Positions 55,254 through 63,427 of a stretch of DNA of 64,000 bases are shown one piece after another. Source of the DNA: a virus. Made by a program: the position numbers and the translations under genes. Every line of letters begins with the position of its first letter. Position 1 is the stretch's first letter. The notes beneath the pieces were generated by a model, which searched no databases, was not told the DNA's origin, and worked only from the letters and a program-made list of their open reading frames with translations. Location of the stretch: positions 96,001-160,000 of the IMG/VR virus record IMGVR_UViG_3300003690_000002. The stretch is one strand, 5' to 3'.

Positions 55254-56822
55254 TTAAATTTCGACAATTGCATGATCTGTTGTGATTAATATAGAAATAG
55301 TTGAAGCCGCATTTTGAAGAGCACATCTTACAACTTTTGCCGGATCGACAATTCCAGCATTAAGCATGTTAACAGCCTTTCCTGTTGAGAAATCCCATCC
55401 GTTCTCCGGGCGCATACGAAGCACTTTGGCTAATATTAAATCTGGAGAGTCACCAGCGTTACGAGCCATTTGTCGTATTGGTTCTTTGACAGCTTCCAGC
55501 ACGATATTAACTCCTAGTTGTTGATCATCATTATTTGTTTTAATTTTCAAACCCTTGGAAGCTCTTAAAATGGCAACACCACCTCCGGCGACAATTCCCT
55601 CTTCTTGGGCGGATTTCACAGCCCCTAAAGCATCTTCAATTCTATGCTTTTTCTCTATCATTTCAATTTCTGTTGCTGCACCGACGCGAATAATTGCAAT
55701 CCCACTAGCTAATCTTGTAATTCTTTCTTGAATTCTTTCACACTCATATAGTGACTCTGTTTGCTCCAACTCGTTTTTCAATAATTCAATTTGTTTTTCA
55801 ACCCCTTCAAGATCACCCTTTCCGTCAACAATCGTAGTGGTATTTTTTAATATTTCAATTTTTTTAGCAACACCTAGATGCTGTAACTCTACATCTTTTA
55901 ATTTAAGTTCCGATTCTATTGTTACGTATGTTGCCCCAACTGACACTGCCAAATCTTTAAGAATGTTTCTCCGCTCTCTTCCATAATAAGGAGCTTTTAT
56001 AGCCGCAACTTTTAAAGTACCACGCACCGCATTCATAATTAATGCGGCTAGTGCTTGACCTTCAATGTCTTCTGCTACGATAACAAAAGGTCTTCCCTCC
56101 CTTGAAATAATCTCTAATAATGGCATTATCTCATCAATAGATTCGATTTTTCCATCAGTAATAAGAAATAGCGGATTTTCATATATAACTGCATTACGTT
56201 TTTCATCATTGATAAATGCACCGGCTAAATATCCTGAATTGAGCCTAAATCCTTCAACTACGTCTAGGCTTGTTTCGGCGGAACGAGCCTCTTCTATCGT
56301 AATCGCCCCATCTTTTCCTGCCAAGTCAATCGCTTTTGCAATTAGTTTTCCAATTGTTTTATCTCCGTTTGCAGAAATTGTAGCTATATGCTCAATATCT
56401 TCTTTCGAGGCAATTGGTATCGCTTGTTTTTTTAATTCTTCAACAATCGTAATCACAGCTTTATCAATACCTCTTTTAATATCAATAGGTGGAACTCCTG
56501 CTGCCAAATATTTTTGCGCTTCTTGTAATATTGCTCTTGATAAAACAGTTGATGTGGTTGTTCCATCTCCAGCATCCATATTTGTTTGAGTTGCAGCTTG
56601 TTTAACTATTTGTGCACCAACATTCTCAAATGGGTCTTCTAATTCAATAAATTTTGCCACTGTAACTCCATCTTTTGTTATCACTGGATTGCTATTTTTT
56701 AAATGTAATATTACATTTCTTCCTTTTGGTCCTAAAGTTGAAGCCACATTGTCTGCTAAAAGATTAACACCAGTAAATATTTTTTGTTGTAGTGTTTTTT
56801 TAGATTCGAATTTTTTTGCCAA
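55254..56822 (-). CDS. groEL: Chaperonin GroEL-like (no GGM tail)
   Basis: TLGPKGRNV; TKDGVTVAK; GDGTTT; ERITRLASG; GIVAGGG; DPAKV. Confidence 0.96.
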   Translation of the reverse strand: MAKKFESKKTLQQKIFTGVNLLADNVASTLGPKGRNVILHLKNSNPVITKDGVTVAKFIELEDPFENVGAQIVKQAATQTNMDAGDGTTTSTVLSRAILQEAQKYLAAGVPPIDIKRGIDKAVITIVEELKKQAIPIASKEDIEHIATISANGDKTIGKLIAKAIDLAGKDGAITIEEARSAETSLDVVEGFRLNSGYLAGAFINDEKRNAVIYENPLFLITDGKIESIDEIMPLLEIISREGRPFVIVAEDIEGQALAALIMNAVRGTLKVAAIKAPYYGRERRNILKDLAVSVGATYVTIESELKLKDVELQHLGVAKKIEILKNTTTIVDGKGDLEGVEKQIELLKNELEQTESLYECERIQERITRLASGIAIIRVGAATEIEMIEKKHRIEDALGAVKSAQEEGIVAGGGVAILRASKGLKIKTNNDDQQLGVNIVLEAVKEPIRQMARNAGDSPDLILAKVLRMRPENGWDFSTGKAVNMLNAGIVDPAKVVRCALQNAASTISILITTDHAIVEI

Positions 56823-57242
56823 TTTTCACCTCTTAAGATATATTATAACAATTTAAATATTTAATTTATATATTCTTTATCTTTTTTTAAAGTTGGATTT
56901 TTTAAAAGACCCTGAGTTTTCAATATATTTTTAGTTAAAATATAATAAGGATCTAATATAATTTGACTGTTAATTTTTTCTTTTACAGAGGCGCTAGTTA
57001 AATTTAGGGATTGTTCTATATTTTTCAAACACTCATCTAATTGCTCTAAGTCTGAATTAATAAGTTTAAAATTTGTATCAGTTAAATATGCATCACTTTC
57101 TATTAATCTATCATAAGTTTCTTCTTTCATGTCAACTATCAATAATAGATTATAATATATTTTTATTAAGTTTTCTTCATTTATCATGGCTGTATCTTCT
57201 TGATGCTTCATTCTATAATTAGTCTTCTAATTCTTTTTGCCA

Positions 57243-58172
57243 CTACTCTCCTCTTTTGTGAGGGTACAGTAAATTAGCTTTATTAGGGTTTAGTTTAGTG
57301 AATAATTTTCGTAATTCTTTTGTCTCTTTTTTAGTTCTACCAAGGATGTAAGTATATTTATGTTTTGCCGTGGCAGGTCTTTTTTGACATCTTAATTTAT
57401 GTCTAGCCCTCTCCTGTTTTAATTGTTTTGCTATTTCTTCTGGAATAATATTCCAATTTACTTTTCGAATGTTTTTCTTTTTTCCAACCATTCTATACCA
57501 TTCCTTCTGCCATTCGATTCCAAGTTTTTTTGCATAGCGAACAATCATGCTTCTATCTGCGAATCCACTATCCCCAAACCAACCTCTATTTAAGTTATCA
57601 GGATCAAGATATTGATTGCCTGAGCCAAATTGTTGTCCCAAGTAATAAAAATTGCATGCTTGATAAATTGTGCCAAGCTCTTTTGCCTCTGGATCGCTAT
57701 AGGCTGTAAATGACCTAAAAGAAGTGTTTTGAACCATCCAGTGAATAGATTTCATAATAAGCCAAGATCCAAGATTCTTTGGCGACCAGCTTATACAAGC
57801 ACCTCTCGATATTAATTTTTCCAAATCTTTATTTTCTTTTCCAAGAAGATGAGAAAAAGAATTAGGCGTTGCCATAATAATAACCCCAGCAAGTTGTCCT
57901 GTGCTTTTAAGTTTCGCTACAAACCTGTGTGTAACCCATATTGGCATTTTTCCTAACCATTCGTGACGTTCAATGAATTGTTTTATATTTCTGCATCGCT
58001 CTTTATCTGTTTTGGGCACAAATTCAAAATCAAAATCTGGAATGCGGAGAGATTTAACTGCTTGTAAATCAAGTCCTGCCTCTAACATGTCTTTCGCTAT
58101 ATTTAAACGGCGAATTTCGTGTTGCCAGCAATGAGATTTATTAAAATCTTTAAAACGTTCGTGTGTATACAT
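57243..58172 (-). CDS. Mom-like (GNAT-fold) DNA base-modification enzyme
   Basis: AYSDPEAKELGTIYQACNFYYLG matches the Mom-family D...G.IYQA.N..Y.G signature. Confidence 0.72.
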   Translation of the reverse strand: MYTHERFKDFNKSHCWQHEIRRLNIAKDMLEAGLDLQAVKSLRIPDFDFEFVPKTDKERCRNIKQFIERHEWLGKMPIWVTHRFVAKLKSTGQLAGVIIMATPNSFSHLLGKENKDLEKLISRGACISWSPKNLGSWLIMKSIHWMVQNTSFRSFTAYSDPEAKELGTIYQACNFYYLGQQFGSGNQYLDPDNLNRGWFGDSGFADRSMIVRYAKKLGIEWQKEWYRMVGKKKNIRKVNWNIIPEEIAKQLKQERARHKLRCQKRPATAKHKYTYILGRTKKETKELRKLFTKLNPNKANLLYPHKRGE

Positions 58173-58192
58173 TGGTTATTTAAGATGAAATA

Positions 58193-59251
58193 TTAATCTT
58201 CACTAGCTAGTATAGGACATGTGCCGTCGCTTTTACACGTTTTTCTTTTAATAGTGAACGTTGTCCAAGATACTCCCAAACCTGAATCAACATACATTCT
58301 CTCCCCCGGTTTATAATGACTACGGTTAGATGTGGAATAGGTAGTACGAGTTTTTGTCATTGGGCGTAACCTAAACGTTATGTTGATATTTGGGTCGTTC
58401 ATGTAATTATTTATTGCTGTTCCGATAGATACAGTTTTTGATAAATGTGTAGATAGTTCTTCAACACTAGTTATAGTTGTTGGTATTGTTGTCACTAGTA
58501 CAGCAGTTGCTGGATATGGATTGTCAGAGCCTCCAGCCACAACTAGTCTTAAAAAAGTTTTATATTTTCCTTCTAATATTTCAGATAAATCTAGGTATTC
58601 GTTTTTAATATTAAATTTACTTTTAAAAGTTAATCCCCCACTTCTTTTGGGAGTACCTAGAATAAACTTACCATTACTTTGTTCTACAACTTTTTGCATA
58701 TCCTCTGTAGAGATTTTATTTGGAAACTGATACGAGGGGTTAATTCCTTTCATCAGATCAATGAACATTGTTTTTTCCGCTTCTATTATGCTCGCTTGAT
58801 CTTGTGTTACTTCTGCCATTTTTTGTTTTATGTTGTCAACAATTATCTGCGCTTCATGTGGCTCTAAAGTGGTGTCTGTTAATCTTTTAAATAACTTTGC
58901 CTCATCCATTCTATTATCGAGAAAATCAAAATTTTCCTTTTTCATGCTGACACCGATTTCTTCACCGTTATCGGTAGTAAGCACGACATCGGCTTTTGGC
59001 TCTAAGGGTCCGCCTCCAAGCTTTGTTGCATCTTTGATTCGCTGAATGCCAAAATCGCCTAAGTTTACTTCTATGGGTGATCCGCCATTGGCGGCGATTA
59101 ATTCATTAACTGCTTTAACAAGATTTCTTTCGTTGTCTTGACCACTAACTCCTATTGTCATAGAAGTTACTTGCTCTTCAATTATTTTAATAAAGTTTTT
59201 AAAACTTAATTTTGGTCTAAAAAAGTTTTCTATTAATTGATCTAGGCTCAT
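58193..59251 (-). CDS. Putative PD-(D/E)xK restriction-like endonuclease
   Basis: Helix E (GQDNERNL), KADV, VSMKK (SxK variant); leader-like N-terminus LDQLIENF...KIIEE. Confidence 0.5.
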   Translation of the reverse strand: MSLDQLIENFFRPKLSFKNFIKIIEEQVTSMTIGVSGQDNERNLVKAVNELIAANGGSPIEVNLGDFGIQRIKDATKLGGGPLEPKADVVLTTDNGEEIGVSMKKENFDFLDNRMDEAKLFKRLTDTTLEPHEAQIIVDNIKQKMAEVTQDQASIIEAEKTMFIDLMKGINPSYQFPNKISTEDMQKVVEQSNGKFILGTPKRSGGLTFKSKFNIKNEYLDLSEILEGKYKTFLRLVVAGGSDNPYPATAVLVTTIPTTITSVEELSTHLSKTVSIGTAINNYMNDPNINITFRLRPMTKTRTTYSTSNRSHYKPGERMYVDSGLGVSWTTFTIKRKTCKSDGTCPILASED

Positions 59252-59254
59252 ATT

Positions 59255-59491
59255 TTAATTAGTTTTCTTTGCTTTAATCTTCTTCATAAATTTGCGTCTT
59301 TTTAAAACAAGTGTCTTGTATGTAACAAAATTACAGACTCCAGTGATTTTTAAATGGTGCTTTTTTTGAAACTTTTTAATTTTTTTTATCAGATTATTAT
59401 CGAACTTGGTGGCACCAAACCATTCAGGTTCCCATTTCAGCCTACGTGCATTCCTTTTATTGCGCCATCTTATGTACCATCTTTTGAACAT
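59255..59491 (-). CDS. Peptidoglycan-binding-like small protein
   Basis: IKKFQKKHHLKITGVCNFVT resembles PG_binding_1. Confidence 0.5.
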   Translation of the reverse strand: MFKRWYIRWRNKRNARRLKWEPEWFGATKFDNNLIKKIKKFQKKHHLKITGVCNFVTYKTLVLKRRKFMKKIKAKKTN

Positions 59492-59494
59492 TTT

Positions 59495-60130
59495 TCATAT
59501 TATAATATCTGCAATCCCACGTTTGACTGCTTGCTCTGCATTGAGATATATATTAACTTTTTTATCTAGCATCCTTTTTAGTTGTTTTTTTGTAATGTTG
59601 GTCTCATCTACAAGTGCATCAATGTGTTGTTCTTGAATCCATCTTATTTCTTCCATTTCGTTTTCCAAATTATAAATCGTTCCATGAGGTCCGCCAGCAA
59701 CACTATGCATCATTACTCGACAGTTTTTACCAATTTTTCGTTTTCCTTTTGTACCGGCAGCCAGCAATAATACTCCCCCAGACATCACTTTACCCACTCC
59801 ATAAGTGTGAATTTCGCACTCACAACGAACCATTCTCATGATATCATAAATAGCAAACATACTTAGTGCATCACCTCCCCAAGTAGAAATATAAAAATCG
59901 ATTGGCGAGGATTGAGTTTGTGTTATGTTGGAATCATCTGTAGCAGGGATATTTTTATAAAATTCTTTTAATGTTAATAAAGATAAGATAACATCTTCGG
60001 CTCTTTCTTCGTTAATATCTCCGCAAAGGCTAATTATTTTTATTTTTAGCTCTTCAATGAGATTATCATCAAGCCTAGATTGAGGTATCGTTTCTGTTGG
60101 TTCTTTTATTGGTTTAGACTTTTCTGTCAT
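59495..60130 (-). CDS. clpP: ClpP-family protease subunit
   Basis: YISTWGG; VMSGGVLLLAAG (catalytic Ser); VMMHS (His); usual catalytic Asp appears as Asn (KVNIYLNAEQA). Confidence 0.88.
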   Translation of the reverse strand: MTEKSKPIKEPTETIPQSRLDDNLIEELKIKIISLCGDINEERAEDVILSLLTLKEFYKNIPATDDSNITQTQSSPIDFYISTWGGDALSMFAIYDIMRMVRCECEIHTYGVGKVMSGGVLLLAAGTKGKRKIGKNCRVMMHSVAGGPHGTIYNLENEMEEIRWIQEQHIDALVDETNITKKQLKRMLDKKVNIYLNAEQAVKRGIADIII

Positions 60131-62389: not shown

Positions 62390-63427
62390 TCATTCGCTTT
62401 TTCTCAAAATATGAGTCCAACCCTCTGCGTTCCCTGCTGGAGTTTGATAAATAAATTCTGATTTATTTTGTAATTCTTTAATATTTCTTGCACCTGTGTA
62501 AGACAGTCCCGACTTTATGCCATTATTTAAATCTGCTAGTATGTATTTTACACCGCCTCTATATGGAACAGTTGCAGAGATACCTTCATTAGAGGAATAT
62601 TCCCCTCTCCATTCAAATTGCGCCTCTTTGCTAGCCATTCCTCTATAAACTTTTCTTTTTATATTTGATGCTCTCGTGATTACGTCTCCTGGGGATTCGT
62701 CAGTACCGGCTAGCATTGATCCAAGCATTACAAAACTGGCTCCAGCAGCCAATGCTTTAACGGCGTCTCCGCTACTTCTAATCCCTCCATCCGCGATAAT
62801 CGGTATATTATGGTGCGTTTCAGAACAATCAAGTATTGTTTGTAGACCAGGTACTCCGTGTCCTGTTTGAATTCTTGTTGAGCAAATAGACCCGCCGCCG
62901 ATATTGCAGCGCACACTATCTGCGCCCCATTTCACAAGATCATTAAACCCCTCTAAGGTGGCTATATTTCCTGCCATTATATGAATCTCGTTTTTAATTG
63001 TATCTTTAATTGTTTTTAAGGCTCTCTCCATTAAAATATGATGACCATGTGCAATGTCTATACATAAAATATCTACCCCTCTCGTCGCTAGTGCAATTGC
63101 ACGTTCCAAATAATCTCCTGTTACACCGATGGCAGCACCAATATGTTCTCCGTCTTCTAATGTTTCATATGCTTCTTCGACAATTTTAGTTTGTTGTTTA
63201 ATATTATTATATCGATGTACTAATCCAAGACCACCTTGTTTCGCCATAGCAATTAACATATCTTTTCCAGTAACAGTATCCATAGGAGAGGATATGATAG
63301 GAATTGATAAACTAATTTTATCATCTAGTTGGCTCTCTAGCGTTATCTTTGAGCGACTTTCTATATCGCTGTATTGAGGTACCAAAAGAACATCATCGTA
63401 TGCTAATGTTTTAATTGCTGATATCAT
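62390..63427 (-). CDS. guaB: IMP dehydrogenase / GMP reductase family, no CBS subdomain
   Basis: YDDVLLVP; SSPMDTVT; DIAHGH; GGGSICSTR; IADGGIR; YRGMAS; EG; GuaB versus GuaC not resolved. Confidence 0.85.

What the first reader, a model, noticed from the sequence alone, without database searches (positions are those of the whole stretch)
57243..59251. Mom-like DNA modifier directly downstream of a restriction-like nuclease
Seen: adjacent co-oriented genes 20 bp apart, one with the Mom signature (SDP...GTIYQACNFYYLG) and one with an E...KAD...SxK nuclease pattern and a leader-like N-terminus. Established: phage Mu Mom is a GNAT-fold enzyme that hypermodifies adenine and blocks restriction; SxK variants of the PD-(D/E)xK core occur in Cfr10I/NgoMIV-type enzymes. 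Inference: a phage-encoded restriction-modification-like pair based on non-methyl chemistry, protecting its own DNA while cutting unmodified host or competitor DNA.
Basis: partly seen in the sequence, partly recalled or inferred. Interest (0 to 1): 0.7.

Follow-up and report, generated by a model that had tools for sequence, protein, structure and literature searches.

The report
Swappable phage nuclease beside Mom modifier
A marine T4-type phage carries a restriction-enzyme-like DNA cutter with a probable "load into the capsid" tag right next to a Mom DNA-modifying gene, and related phages keep a nuclease-like gene beside an adenine modifier (Mom or Dam) while swapping its body; this suggests, but does not prove, a virus-delivered cut-and-protect pair.

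Summary
Two co-oriented minus-strand genes lie 20 bp apart. The 309-aa gene is a Mom-family protein (Pfam E 2.7e-10). The 352-aa gene ("X") has no Pfam hit, but its model (pLDDT 83) best matches the monomeric restriction enzymes MspI, HinP1I and HhaI, and it has an invariant E41...D88-x13-S102-x-K104 motif.

The strict X-Mom pairing fails. Mom relatives number 2184 clusters against 23 for X, and none of 80 Mom-anchored viral loci holds X.

A broader pattern appears instead. In every locus seen with the ClpP...Mom-GroEL gene order, the gene just upstream of Mom is a 332-811 aa protein with a conserved N-terminal leader and a variable body. The same body families, under a second leader, sit just downstream of a Dam methylase in another phage clade. 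Two families (X and F2) fold like restriction enzymes. The others show only a nuclease-like motif.

Leaders end in a hydrophobic-x-Glu site typical of T4 prohead-protease cleavage, and the genome encodes that protease.

Best reading (about 0.45): a capsid-loaded, injected restriction-like nuclease with phage DNA shielded by Mom or Dam, analogous to chlorovirus virion-borne restriction enzymes. No activity, packaging or protection has been shown.

A sequence look-up of X in this scan's earlier findings found nothing.

The parts
58193..59251 (-). Gene X, 352 aa: predicted PD-(D/E)xK endonuclease with a monomeric type-IIP-like fold, made with an N-terminal leader
   Evidence: ORF. 23-sequence alignment with invariant E41, D88, S102, K104. 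AF2 model pLDDT 83. Top fold matches are MspI (Z 6.0), HinP1I (Z 5.6; Foldseek E 0.012) and HhaI (Z 4.3). The only named family among 30 language-model feature hits is R.HinP1I (score 0.94).
59153..59251 (-). Leader and probable propeptide of X (residues 1-33): leader type B, followed by a hydrophobic-x-Glu site (I-I-E, residues 23-25)
   Evidence: This part of the model has low confidence (pLDDT 54-58) and is helical, and fold alignments start at residues 34-39. Leaderless homologues begin exactly at the conserved core. The same leader type heads unrelated proteins in the same slot of related phages.
58940..58990 (-). Catalytic core motif of X: D88-x13-S102-M-K104. The helix glutamate E41 lies at 59129-59131.
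   Evidence: These columns are invariant. In the model, D88 sits just before strand 89-93, S102 ends strand 98-102 and K104 lies two residues after it, and E41 lies in helix 37-54. This is the canonical PD-(D/E)xK layout.
58173..58192 (-). 20-bp spacer between X and Mom
   Evidence: Sequence read. No promoter-like element is evident.
57243..58172 (-). Mom-family DNA adenine-N6 modifier, 309 aa, with no leader
   Evidence: Pfam PF25680 E 2.7e-10 and PHROG 1384 E 3.5e-14. It is the only Mom in the genome, which has no D12, N6_N4 or C5 methylase hit. Mu Mom W48, D149 and Y159 are conserved.
57636..57698 (-). Mom signature segment, residues 159-179 (SDP...YQACNF..LG)
   Evidence: hhalign aligns window residues 157-184 with Mu Mom 146-173 (probability 63%, E 7e-5).
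59255..59491 (-). 78-aa protein with a peptidoglycan-binding domain; left neighbour of the slot
   Evidence: Pfam PG_binding_1 E 1.1e-5. An amidase or PG-binding gene sits in the same place in relatives.
59495..60130 (-). ClpP-family protease; left landmark of the conserved gene order
   Evidence: Pfam CLP_protease E 4.7e-31. The synteny is seen.
56861..57211 (-). 116-aa ORF of unknown function between Mom and GroEL. It is absent in L015, L016 and L040.
55254..56822 (-). GroEL-type chaperonin; right landmark of the conserved gene order
   Evidence: Pfam Cpn60_TCP1 E 1.7e-69.

Best explanation
X is one allele of a hypervariable nuclease cassette carried by a group of marine T4-type phages.

Shown by computation:
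- X has a PD-(D/E)xK endonuclease fold closest to the monomeric restriction enzymes MspI, HinP1I and HhaI.
- It has an invariant E...D-x13-SxK centre.
- It has a detachable N-terminal leader.
- Its neighbour is a Mom-family gene.
- Across relatives, the gene next to the adenine-N6 modifier (Mom in one gene order, a D12-class Dam methylase in another) is a leader-tagged protein. The leader is conserved, the body is replaced among at least seven families, and several families occur beside both modifiers.

Inferred mechanism:
1. The leader acts like the T4 capsid targeting sequence and loads the nuclease into the prohead.
2. The phage's gp21-type protease trims it at hydrophobic-x-Glu sites.
3. 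The mature enzyme is injected with the genome and cuts unmodified host or rival-phage DNA.
4. The incoming phage DNA is spared because Mom (or Dam in relatives) marked it in the previous cycle.

This would be an offensive, virion-delivered restriction-modification-like module. Turnover of the nuclease body would reflect an arms race over target sites or inhibitors.
For: Fold and motif of X.

A second, sequence-unrelated slot family (F2) also folds like a restriction enzyme. Its residues 132-377 match HhaI (Foldseek E 3.9e-4, probability 0.99; VIA Z 7.8, 181 residues aligned). Families F3-F9 show a (P/K)xD-x10-20-(S/E)xK motif by eye and regex. F4/F5 give a local profile match at X's catalytic motif. 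The nearest named clusters for F3 are HinP1I, HaeIII and MspI at score 0.88, which is a lead only.

Adjacency:
- X-Mom in the window, L015 and L016.
- X-Dam in L002.
- Dam-X in L011-14.
- Dam-X followed by a second D12-class methylase in L009/10.
- All loci seen with ClpP...Mom-GroEL (about 10 distinct sequences) have a 332-811 aa leader-tagged ORF just upstream of Mom.
- About 30 of 39 Dam-anchored loci have a leader-tagged or nuclease-family ORF right after Dam, with Dam identity ranging from 100% down to about 45%.
- Flanks are collinear at 84-92% nucleotide identity while the body is replaced.
- Families F1 (X), F2, F3, F4 and F8 occur beside both Mom and Dam.
- In the ClpP-GroEL slot the modifier itself is exchanged, Mom for Dam (L002).

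Leader:
- Orthologues of X score against this genome's leader-A HMM at E 2e-5 to 0.04.
- All 17 N-terminally extended X proteins that I inspected have a hydrophobic-x-Glu 3-11 residues before the core (my reading of the N-termini printed).
- Leaderless homologues start at the core.
- A gp21-type protease is encoded in the genome (PF03420, E 1.6e-33).

Precedents: chloroviruses package restriction enzymes but not their adjacent methylases, and host DNA degradation starts within 5 min (PMC7019647). The T4 CTS loads diverse proteins, including an engineered nuclease (PMC3012670, PMC9958956).
Against: - No experiment shows cleavage, packaging, modification or protection.
- The strict pair fails: none of 80 Mom-anchored loci has X, and Mom occurs widely without any such neighbour.
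- X homologues with an N-terminal extension but no adjacent modifier exist (L007, L017). No Mom or Dam was found in the 53.5 kb held for L017's contig, which is only 27% complete.
- Leaderless homologues sit among replication genes with no modifier.
- Nearly identical Dam genes (94-96% identity) pair with five different nuclease families. That is awkward if each nuclease needs a matching methylation site.
- The window's own X leader does not match the genome's leader-A HMM.
- Conserved leaders could be mere recombination anchors.
- The adjacency events come from only two or three phage clades, so they are not independent.
- Fold Z-scores of 5.6-7.8 are in the middling range.
Confidence: 0.45

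Rival explanations
1. The two genes are independent neighbours. Mom serves only to evade host restriction, as in phage Mu. The leader-tagged nuclease is a separate internal-protein-like or host-takeover effector. They lie together because both sit in a hyperplastic accessory region where cassettes recombine at conserved flanks.
For: Mom is far commoner than X and mostly lacks such a neighbour. X occurs without a modifier. One Dam type tolerates five nuclease families. The same genome has other recombining cassette arrays (earlier finding e1-5808103).
Against: A nuclease-like gene is adjacent to an adenine-N6 modifier in two unrelated gene orders (ClpP-GroEL and Dam-RecA). It persists through exchange of Mom for Dam and through repeated body replacement. 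An injected or early-acting nuclease still needs some way to spare phage DNA. Mom is the only Mom-family or common-family (D12, N6_N4, C5) methylase hit in this complete genome.
Confidence: 0.3
2. X is a cytoplasmic nuclease that is not packaged. It degrades host DNA or processes DNA during infection, like T4 endonuclease II or IV. The conserved N-terminus is only a shared start segment that serves as a recombination joint for cassette exchange, not a capsid-targeting signal.
For: Leaderless homologues lie in the replication and nucleotide-metabolism modules of T4-like phages, next to DnaB, gp44/gp45 homologues, dCMP deaminase and DUF6267. The window's X leader fails the leader-A HMM. Body replacement occurs between collinear conserved flanks, with the left-hand similarity ending just inside the leader.
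Against: Leaders are conserved at the protein level between very different DNA contexts and carry hydrophobic-x-Glu sites just before the mature core. The genome encodes a gp21-type protease. About 16 other unrelated proteins in this genome share leader A (earlier finding e1-5808073).
Confidence: 0.17
3. X is not an active nuclease. It would be a DNA-binding internal protein or a decoy that keeps a nuclease-like fold.
For: Fold Z-scores are middling. There is no sequence match to any characterised enzyme. The middle residue of the motif is Ser rather than Asp or Glu.
Against: The motif residues E41, D88, S102 and K104, plus nearby acidic residues at 112, 116 and 117, are invariant or nearly so over 34-49% identity. 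As recalled, not checked here, MspI and HinP1I have Asn and Gln at that position and Cfr10I and NgoMIV have Ser, and all four are active.
Confidence: 0.08

Closest known systems
Chlorovirus virion-associated restriction-modification systems (e.g. PBCV-1; Agarkova et al. 2006, reviewed in PMC7019647)
   Same: The virus encodes an endonuclease gene adjacent to a DNA modification gene. The endonuclease, but not the modifier, is packaged, enters with the genome and degrades host DNA. Many viral modifiers are 'orphans' without a nuclease, as here.
   Different: That host is a eukaryotic alga, the modifiers are methyltransferases, and packaging was shown experimentally. Here the virus is a T4-type phage, the modifier is a Mom-family enzyme (or Dam in relatives), packaging is inferred only from a leader, and the nuclease body is hypervariable.
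Phage T4 internal proteins with the capsid targeting sequence (IPI-III, Alt; PMC3012670, PMC9958956)
   Same: A short conserved N-terminal leader sits on otherwise unrelated, rapidly diversifying proteins encoded at a fixed locus. The leader is removed by the gp21 protease, and the cargo is injected with the DNA to deal with host-phage conflict.
   Different: As far as I know, the T4 cargoes are restriction inhibitors or an ADP-ribosyltransferase, not restriction-like nucleases; a nuclease has been packaged only by engineering. The T4 locus is not tied to a DNA modification gene.
Monomeric type IIP restriction endonucleases MspI, HinP1I and HhaI (PMC7026639)
   Same: They are the best structural matches for both X and slot family F2. 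They share a two-sheet architecture. HhaI has the motif SD-x11-EAK (PMC7026639); the non-canonical middle residues of MspI (Asn) and HinP1I (Gln) are from my recall. X has [A/S]D-x13-SxK.
   Different: There is no detectable sequence homology. X has an N-terminal leader and extra helices (about residues 117-191). It occurs only in viruses: 37 cluster representatives among 1.84 billion proteins, and the only hit in the species genomes scanned is a phage-like contig in a MAG. Its specificity is unknown.
Phage Mu Mom (PMC13219725, PMC7261163)
   Same: Same Pfam and PHROG family. The GNAT-core segment is conserved, including D149, Y159 and W48. A long insertion is present after the core.
   Different: It is 27% identical and 309 rather than 241 aa. 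Glu aligns with the essential R151, and the equivalents of R111 and S124 are unresolved. There is no Com/Dam-type control region. Mu Mom has no nuclease partner.
Cfr10I/NgoMIV-type SxK restriction enzymes
   Same: An SxK variant of the PD-(D/E)xK motif, with candidate compensating acidic residues on the next helix (positions 112, 116, 117).
   Different: These enzymes did not appear among the top 50 structural matches, which does not exclude them. They are tetrameric type IIF enzymes, whereas X looks like the monomeric class.
T4 endonuclease II/IV with hydroxymethylcytosine DNA (own knowledge)
   Same: The logic is the same: phage nucleases destroy unmodified host DNA while modified phage DNA is spared.
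   Different: The nuclease folds differ, the modified base is cytosine rather than adenine, the enzymes are not virion-delivered, and the genes are not adjacent.

Membership tests
Mom protein family (Pfam PF25680 / PHROG 1384) | Profile match above the curated threshold | tested here: met
   40.7 bits against a 27.1-bit cut-off, E 2.7e-10. PHROG 1384 E 3.5e-14 over residues 60-300.
Mom protein family (Pfam PF25680 / PHROG 1384) | Mu Mom residues shown by mutagenesis to matter (W48, H58, Y59, R111, S124, D149, R151, Y159, W181; PMC13219725) | tested here: inconclusive
   W48, D149 and Y159 align with invariant W72, D160 and Y170. R151 aligns with E162. R111 and S124 fall in a region with a length difference; an invariant R123 and S128 in the ISRGAxIS stretch are candidates, but the alignment is ambiguous.
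Mom protein family (Pfam PF25680 / PHROG 1384) | GNAT fold with an HTH-like insertion after the core | not tested
The alignment shows about 85 extra residues after the YLGQ strand, where Mu has its insertion.
Mom protein family (Pfam PF25680 / PHROG 1384) | Glycyl-tRNA-dependent formation of N6-carbamoylmethyl-adenine in DNA | not testable with these tools
   Needs nucleoside LC-MS or long-read kinetics.
PD-(D/E)xK nucleases, monomeric type IIP class (MspI/HinP1I/HhaI) | Alpha-beta-beta-beta-alpha-beta core with Glu on the first helix, Asp at the start of strand 2, and (D/E/S/N/Q)xK on strand 3 | tested here: met
   Invariant E41, D88, S102, K104. Their placement on helix 37-54 and strands 89-93 and 98-102. 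The top 50 structural matches are dominated by PD-(D/E)xK nucleases.
PD-(D/E)xK nucleases, monomeric type IIP class (MspI/HinP1I/HhaI) | Whole-chain two-sheet architecture like MspI/HinP1I | tested here: inconclusive
   MspI Z 6.0 (164 of 262 residues, rmsd 5.0). HinP1I Z 5.6 and Foldseek E 0.012. HhaI Z 4.3. These are the top hits and are consistent across methods, with an R.HinP1I cluster also found by language-model features. However, the Z-scores are below the level that excludes a common arrangement.
PD-(D/E)xK nucleases, monomeric type IIP class (MspI/HinP1I/HhaI) | Sequence-specific double-strand cleavage | not testable with these tools
   No biochemical data. No palindromic 4-mer containing adenine is avoided in the genome.
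Type II restriction-modification system | Endonuclease gene adjacent to a DNA modification gene | tested here: met
   20-bp spacing in the window. X-Mom, X-Dam and Dam-X arrangements in relatives.
Type II restriction-modification system | The two genes are inherited together | tested here: not met
   None of 80 Mom-anchored loci and only 4 (identical) of 46 Dam-anchored loci contain X. The modifier persists while the nuclease body is replaced. What is conserved is the pairing of 'a nuclease-like cassette' with 'an adenine modifier', not a particular pair.
Type II restriction-modification system | The modification blocks the cognate nuclease | not testable with these tools
   Needs cleavage assays on modified and unmodified DNA.
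T4-type capsid-targeted internal proteins | Short N-terminal leader shared by unrelated proteins | tested here: met
   Leader B heads at least five unrelated bodies upstream of Mom. Leader A heads at least five bodies downstream of Dam. The same body families occur under either leader.
T4-type capsid-targeted internal proteins | Window X matches this genome's own shared leader (leader A) | tested here: not met
   HMM built from 7 leader-A seeds: X scores E 160, -0.5 bits. Orthologues P0024, P0030, P0005 and P0006 score E 2e-5 to 9e-3.
T4-type capsid-targeted internal proteins | Prohead-protease site (hydrophobic-x-Glu) between leader and mature domain, and a gp21-type protease in the genome | tested here: met
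   Such a site lies 3-11 residues before the core in all 17 extended X proteins that I inspected's output. PF03420 hit at E 1.6e-33 in the own genome. The cleavage consensus is from my own knowledge of T4.
T4-type capsid-targeted internal proteins | Protein present in virions and injected | not testable with these tools
   No cultured relative is available: there was no hit among 50,697 isolated phage records.
Cfr10I/NgoMIV-type SxK enzymes | Fold similarity and a compensating Glu on a downstream helix | tested here: inconclusive
   SxK is present, and acidic residues at 112, 116 and 117 are nearly invariant. These enzymes were not among the listed structural matches, which does not exclude them.

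The most novel reading that the evidence does not exclude
A group of marine T4-type phages arm their capsids with a swappable 'warhead'. This is a hypervariable family of monomeric restriction-endonuclease-like enzymes, loaded through a modular leader peptide and injected with the genome. The phage DNA is made immune by the neighbouring adenine-N6 modifier. To my knowledge, this would be the first natural capsid-delivered restriction enzyme in a bacteriophage. It would also be the first restriction-modification-like system whose protective partner is Mom, a tRNA-dependent glycyl transferase, rather than a methyltransferase.
Probability: 0.35. Interest if true: 0.85.

Novelty: new variant of a known kind. 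Interest (0 to 1): 0.72.

Why it matters
If true, three well-studied ideas would meet in one module:
- viral restriction-modification used for attack, so far known from chloroviruses;
- T4-style capsid loading of diversifying cargo;
- Mom hypermodification, whose chemistry was solved only in 2026.

It would give Mom a second role: self-immunity against the phage's own weapon, not only evasion of host enzymes. It would also explain why some phage Dam and Mom genes look like 'orphans'.

The slot is a natural library of at least seven compact, ORFan restriction-like nucleases. They may be sensitive to N6-adenine adducts, which is of practical interest as reagents for mapping such modifications.

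Even if the pairing proves coincidental, the cassette exchange is well documented here. It shows a conserved leader with replaced bodies between collinear flanks, in two different genomic slots.

Tried and rejected
**Searches that gave nothing for X**
- Pfam, NCBIfam and PADLOC gave no significant hit. The best were PADLOC NsnC at E 0.013 and noise.
- Sequence and profile searches of the PDB with X, A1, A5 and A6 gave only noise.
- tblastn of X against 50,697 isolated phages found no match.
- A pattern scan of the 185,579-species genome collection found only one contig. It is phage-like, sits in a MAG, and is the same as L001.

**GGCC avoidance as a clue to X's target**
- GGCC is strongly avoided in the genome: 29 observed against 278 expected.
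- I rejected it as a clue because the same avoidance occurs in many related loci that lack X, and GGCC contains no adenine that Mom or Dam could protect.
- It is probably driven by host restriction.

**Other negative or inconclusive checks**
- GATC depletion in loci with leaderless X is not specific either.
- The T4 late-promoter motif TATAAATA is not enriched and is not near the pair: 10 matches against 9.3 expected.
- Profile-profile comparison of X with slot families F2, F3 and F6 gave only leader or very weak motif matches. Common ancestry of all the slot families is therefore not shown.
- phmmer of the Mom-like protein against the PDB found nothing, and I did not fold it.
- The 811-aa protein upstream of Mom in L040 is not a long form of X.
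Full report
**1. The observation**

The window lies in a complete 186,398-bp virus record with direct terminal repeats. Earlier notes of this scan call it a marine T4-type phage. I confirmed a gp21-type prohead protease in it.

On the minus strand, a 352-aa ORF (X, 58193-59251) is followed after 20 bp by a 309-aa ORF (57243-58172). The gene order in transcription direction is:

- ClpP (59495-60130)
- a 78-aa peptidoglycan-binding protein
- X
- the Mom-like gene
- a 116-aa ORF
- GroEL (55254-56822)

**2. The modifier**

- The 309-aa protein passes the Pfam Mom model (E 2.7e-10, above the gathering score) and PHROG 1384.
- It is the genome's only Mom. No D12, N6_N4 or C5 methylase was found.
- Against Mu Mom it is 27% identical. 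W48, D149 and Y159, all needed for Mu Mom activity (PMC13219725), are conserved.
- Glu aligns with the essential R151. The equivalents of R111 and S124 could not be placed with confidence.
- I file it as a Mom-family member. The chemistry (glycyl-tRNA-dependent N6-carbamoylmethyl-adenine) is inferred, not shown.
- This subfamily is abundant. It has 2184 clusters at E <= 1e-5, more than 100 of them at 60-72% identity, and many lie on 150-200 kb contigs.

**3. The nuclease**

- X has no hit in Pfam, NCBIfam or PADLOC, and no sequence hit in the PDB.
- It has only 22 homologous clusters among 5.8 billion proteins. A full HMM search of 1.84 billion representatives found 37.
- No isolated phage has it. 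The only 'cellular' hit is a phage-like contig in a MAG.
- The alignment shows invariant E41, E84-P-K86, D88, S102-M-K104-K105, R294 and R296.
- The AlphaFold model (pLDDT 83) puts E41 on a helix, D88 just before a strand, S102 at the end of the next strand and K104 two residues after it.
- Foldseek ranks HinP1I first (E 0.012), with MspI also in the top four.
- The Foldseek-independent search ranks MspI (Z 6.0), HinP1I (Z 5.6), I-Ssp6803I, then HhaI, Hjc, NhoI, SwaI and RecU. Nearly all are PD-(D/E)xK nucleases.
- A language-model feature search names only one family among its 30 hits, R.HinP1I (score 0.94).
- HhaI, HinP1I and MspI form a known structural group of monomeric type IIP enzymes (PMC7026639).
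- The nuclease fold is therefore supported. The Z-scores are middling, so the finer assignment is a best guess.

**4. The strict pair fails**

tblastn and an HMM of X were run over loci anchored on X, on Mom and on Dam. The results:

- X lies next to Mom in the window, L015 and L016. Identities are X 45-55%, Mom 52-63% and GroEL 58-62%, so these three have co-diverged.
- X lies next to a D12 methylase in L002 (downstream of X), in L011-14 (upstream) and in L009/10 (one on each side).
- X has no modifier next to it in L001, L007 and L017.
- In the leaderless lineage, X sits among DnaB, gp44/gp45, dCMP deaminase and DUF6267 genes.
- None of 80 Mom-anchored loci contains X.
- Of 46 Dam-anchored loci, only the four identical to L011 contain X.

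**5. A broader pattern replaces it**

*The Dam slot.* In phages whose Dam is 77-96% identical to that of L011, the flanks are collinear. The roughly 1.1-kb segment between Dam and RecA differs. It encodes proteins of 320-390 aa that all begin with the same leader (core MEGWR) but have unrelated bodies. About 30 of 39 Dam-anchored loci have a leader-tagged or nuclease-family ORF there. A few have Dam directly followed by RecA.

*The Mom slot.* Every Mom-anchored locus that also holds ClpP and GroEL has, directly upstream of Mom, a 355-674 aa ORF (L045-48, L058, L060, L065, L070). Most begin with a leader of the second type (core LVENYF) or a variant. With the window, L015, L016 and L040 the range is 332-811 aa.

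*Shared families.* BLAST clustering gives at least seven body families. F1 (X), F2, F3, F4 and F8 occur beside both Mom and Dam.

*Are the bodies nucleases?*
- All bodies that I inspected show a (P/K)xD-x10-20-(S/E)xK motif.
- F4/F5 share X's EPKxD...SxK signature in a local profile match.
- Its residues 132-377 match HhaI (Foldseek E 3.9e-4, probability 0.99; Z 7.8 over 181 residues).
- The nearest named clusters for F3 are HinP1I, HaeIII and MspI, at scores that are only leads.
- So two sequence-unrelated families are restriction-enzyme-like by fold. The others are so by motif only.

**6. The leader**

- The earlier follow-up on this genome reported a T4-CTS-like leader on about 16 unrelated proteins.
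- I rebuilt that leader as an HMM. The window's X does not match it (E 160). Orthologues of X in other phages do match (E 2e-5 to 0.04).
- The window's X carries the second leader type.
- In the model, the first 33 residues are low-confidence helices outside the fold alignment.
- Leaderless homologues start at the conserved SGQxSERN core.
- All 17 extended homologues that I inspected have a hydrophobic-x-Glu 3-11 residues before that core (my reading's output). From my knowledge of T4, this is the gp21 cleavage consensus.
- In T4, the CTS loads diverse internal proteins and can load an engineered nuclease. The protease removes short N-terminal peptides from these proteins (PMC3012670, PMC9958956).
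- Packaging of X is therefore a reasoned inference, not a result.

**7. Mechanism and its weak points**

The most economical reading is a virion-delivered restriction-like nuclease, with phage DNA pre-marked by the neighbouring adenine modifier. This is the logic shown for chloroviruses, where the restriction enzymes, but not the adjacent methylases, are packaged and host DNA is degraded within minutes (PMC7019647).

The strongest comparative points are these:
- Adjacency persists in two unrelated gene orders.
- The modifier itself is exchanged (Mom for Dam) at one slot.
- The nuclease body turns over repeatedly beside a stable modifier.

The weak points are these:
- There are only two or three phage clades, so the events are not independent.
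- Some leader-bearing X genes have no visible modifier.
- One Dam type pairs with five nuclease families.
- There are no biochemical data.

The main rival is independent functions in a recombination hot spot.

**8. Side result**

GGCC is almost absent from the genome (29 against 278 expected). The same holds for many related loci without X. I attribute it to host restriction pressure, not to X.

**9. Verdict**

The strict X-Mom pair does not hold, but the broader pattern of a nuclease cassette beside an adenine modifier does.
- It is best classed as a new variant of known kinds: viral restriction-modification, T4 capsid-targeted cargo, and Mom.
- A sequence look-up of X in this scan's earlier findings found nothing, and four full-text searches turned up no paper on such a pairing.

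Noticed in passing
whole genome (window = C1:96001-160000); loci L002, L007, L009, L011, L015-17, L023, L040-L165: GGCC is almost absent: 29 observed against 278 expected genome-wide (O/E 0.10, z = -14.9). The same near-absence is seen in most related marine phage loci, whether or not they carry X, so it probably reflects host GGCC-type restriction.
   Followed up: yes
loci L041, L042, L049, L083, L085-92, L096, L102, L106, L112, L116, L117, L119, L123: Many Mom-bearing viral loci contain no GATC at all (for example 0 against 38 expected). Loci with a Dam gene have normal GATC counts. This suggests alternative strategies against GATC-specific nucleases.
   Followed up: partly
P0002-P0011, L023 (N-terminal regions of X homologues; absent in the window's X): Between the leader and the nuclease core, many homologues carry a conserved, very acidic linker with two cysteines (core DDEVxVCDSxIGCxDF). 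It could be an inhibitory or DNA-mimicking pro-region that the prohead protease removes.
   Followed up: no
L015:3654-5921: Here the X domain is the C-terminal 300 aa of a 755-aa open frame. Its first 450 aa have no Pfam match but begin with a leader-B-like peptide. P0015 is a similar long form.
   Followed up: partly
L019, L021, L031, L032 (and L003, a few genes away): Distant X homologues (leaderless or with a different short N-terminal extension) repeatedly lie next to a DUF6267 (PF19782) gene in the replication module of other T4-like phages. The window's genome gave no DUF6267 hit, but that search's control was silent, so absence is not shown.
   Followed up: partly
model m3f3e781f3708 (L137:4235-5368), residues 47-127: Slot family F2 has an extra N-terminal alpha/beta domain. 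Its best structural matches are the small lobe of CD-NTase and terminal-uridylyltransferase folds (Z 7-8 over about 75 residues). It may be only a common motif.
   Followed up: no
L151:4785-6407 and L143: In some Dam-anchored loci a roughly 520-540 aa helicase-like protein follows Dam. It has weak matches to a circularly permuted SF2 helicase and to a type I restriction R-subunit domain. In L151 a leaderless F2-type nuclease comes next, which looks like a different, more classical restriction-like layout.
   Followed up: no
window 55254-56822, 59495-60130, 62390-63427: The phage encodes its own GroEL-type chaperonin, a ClpP-family protease that is separate from its gp21-type prohead protease, and an IMP dehydrogenase/GMP reductase-family enzyme.
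   Followed up: no
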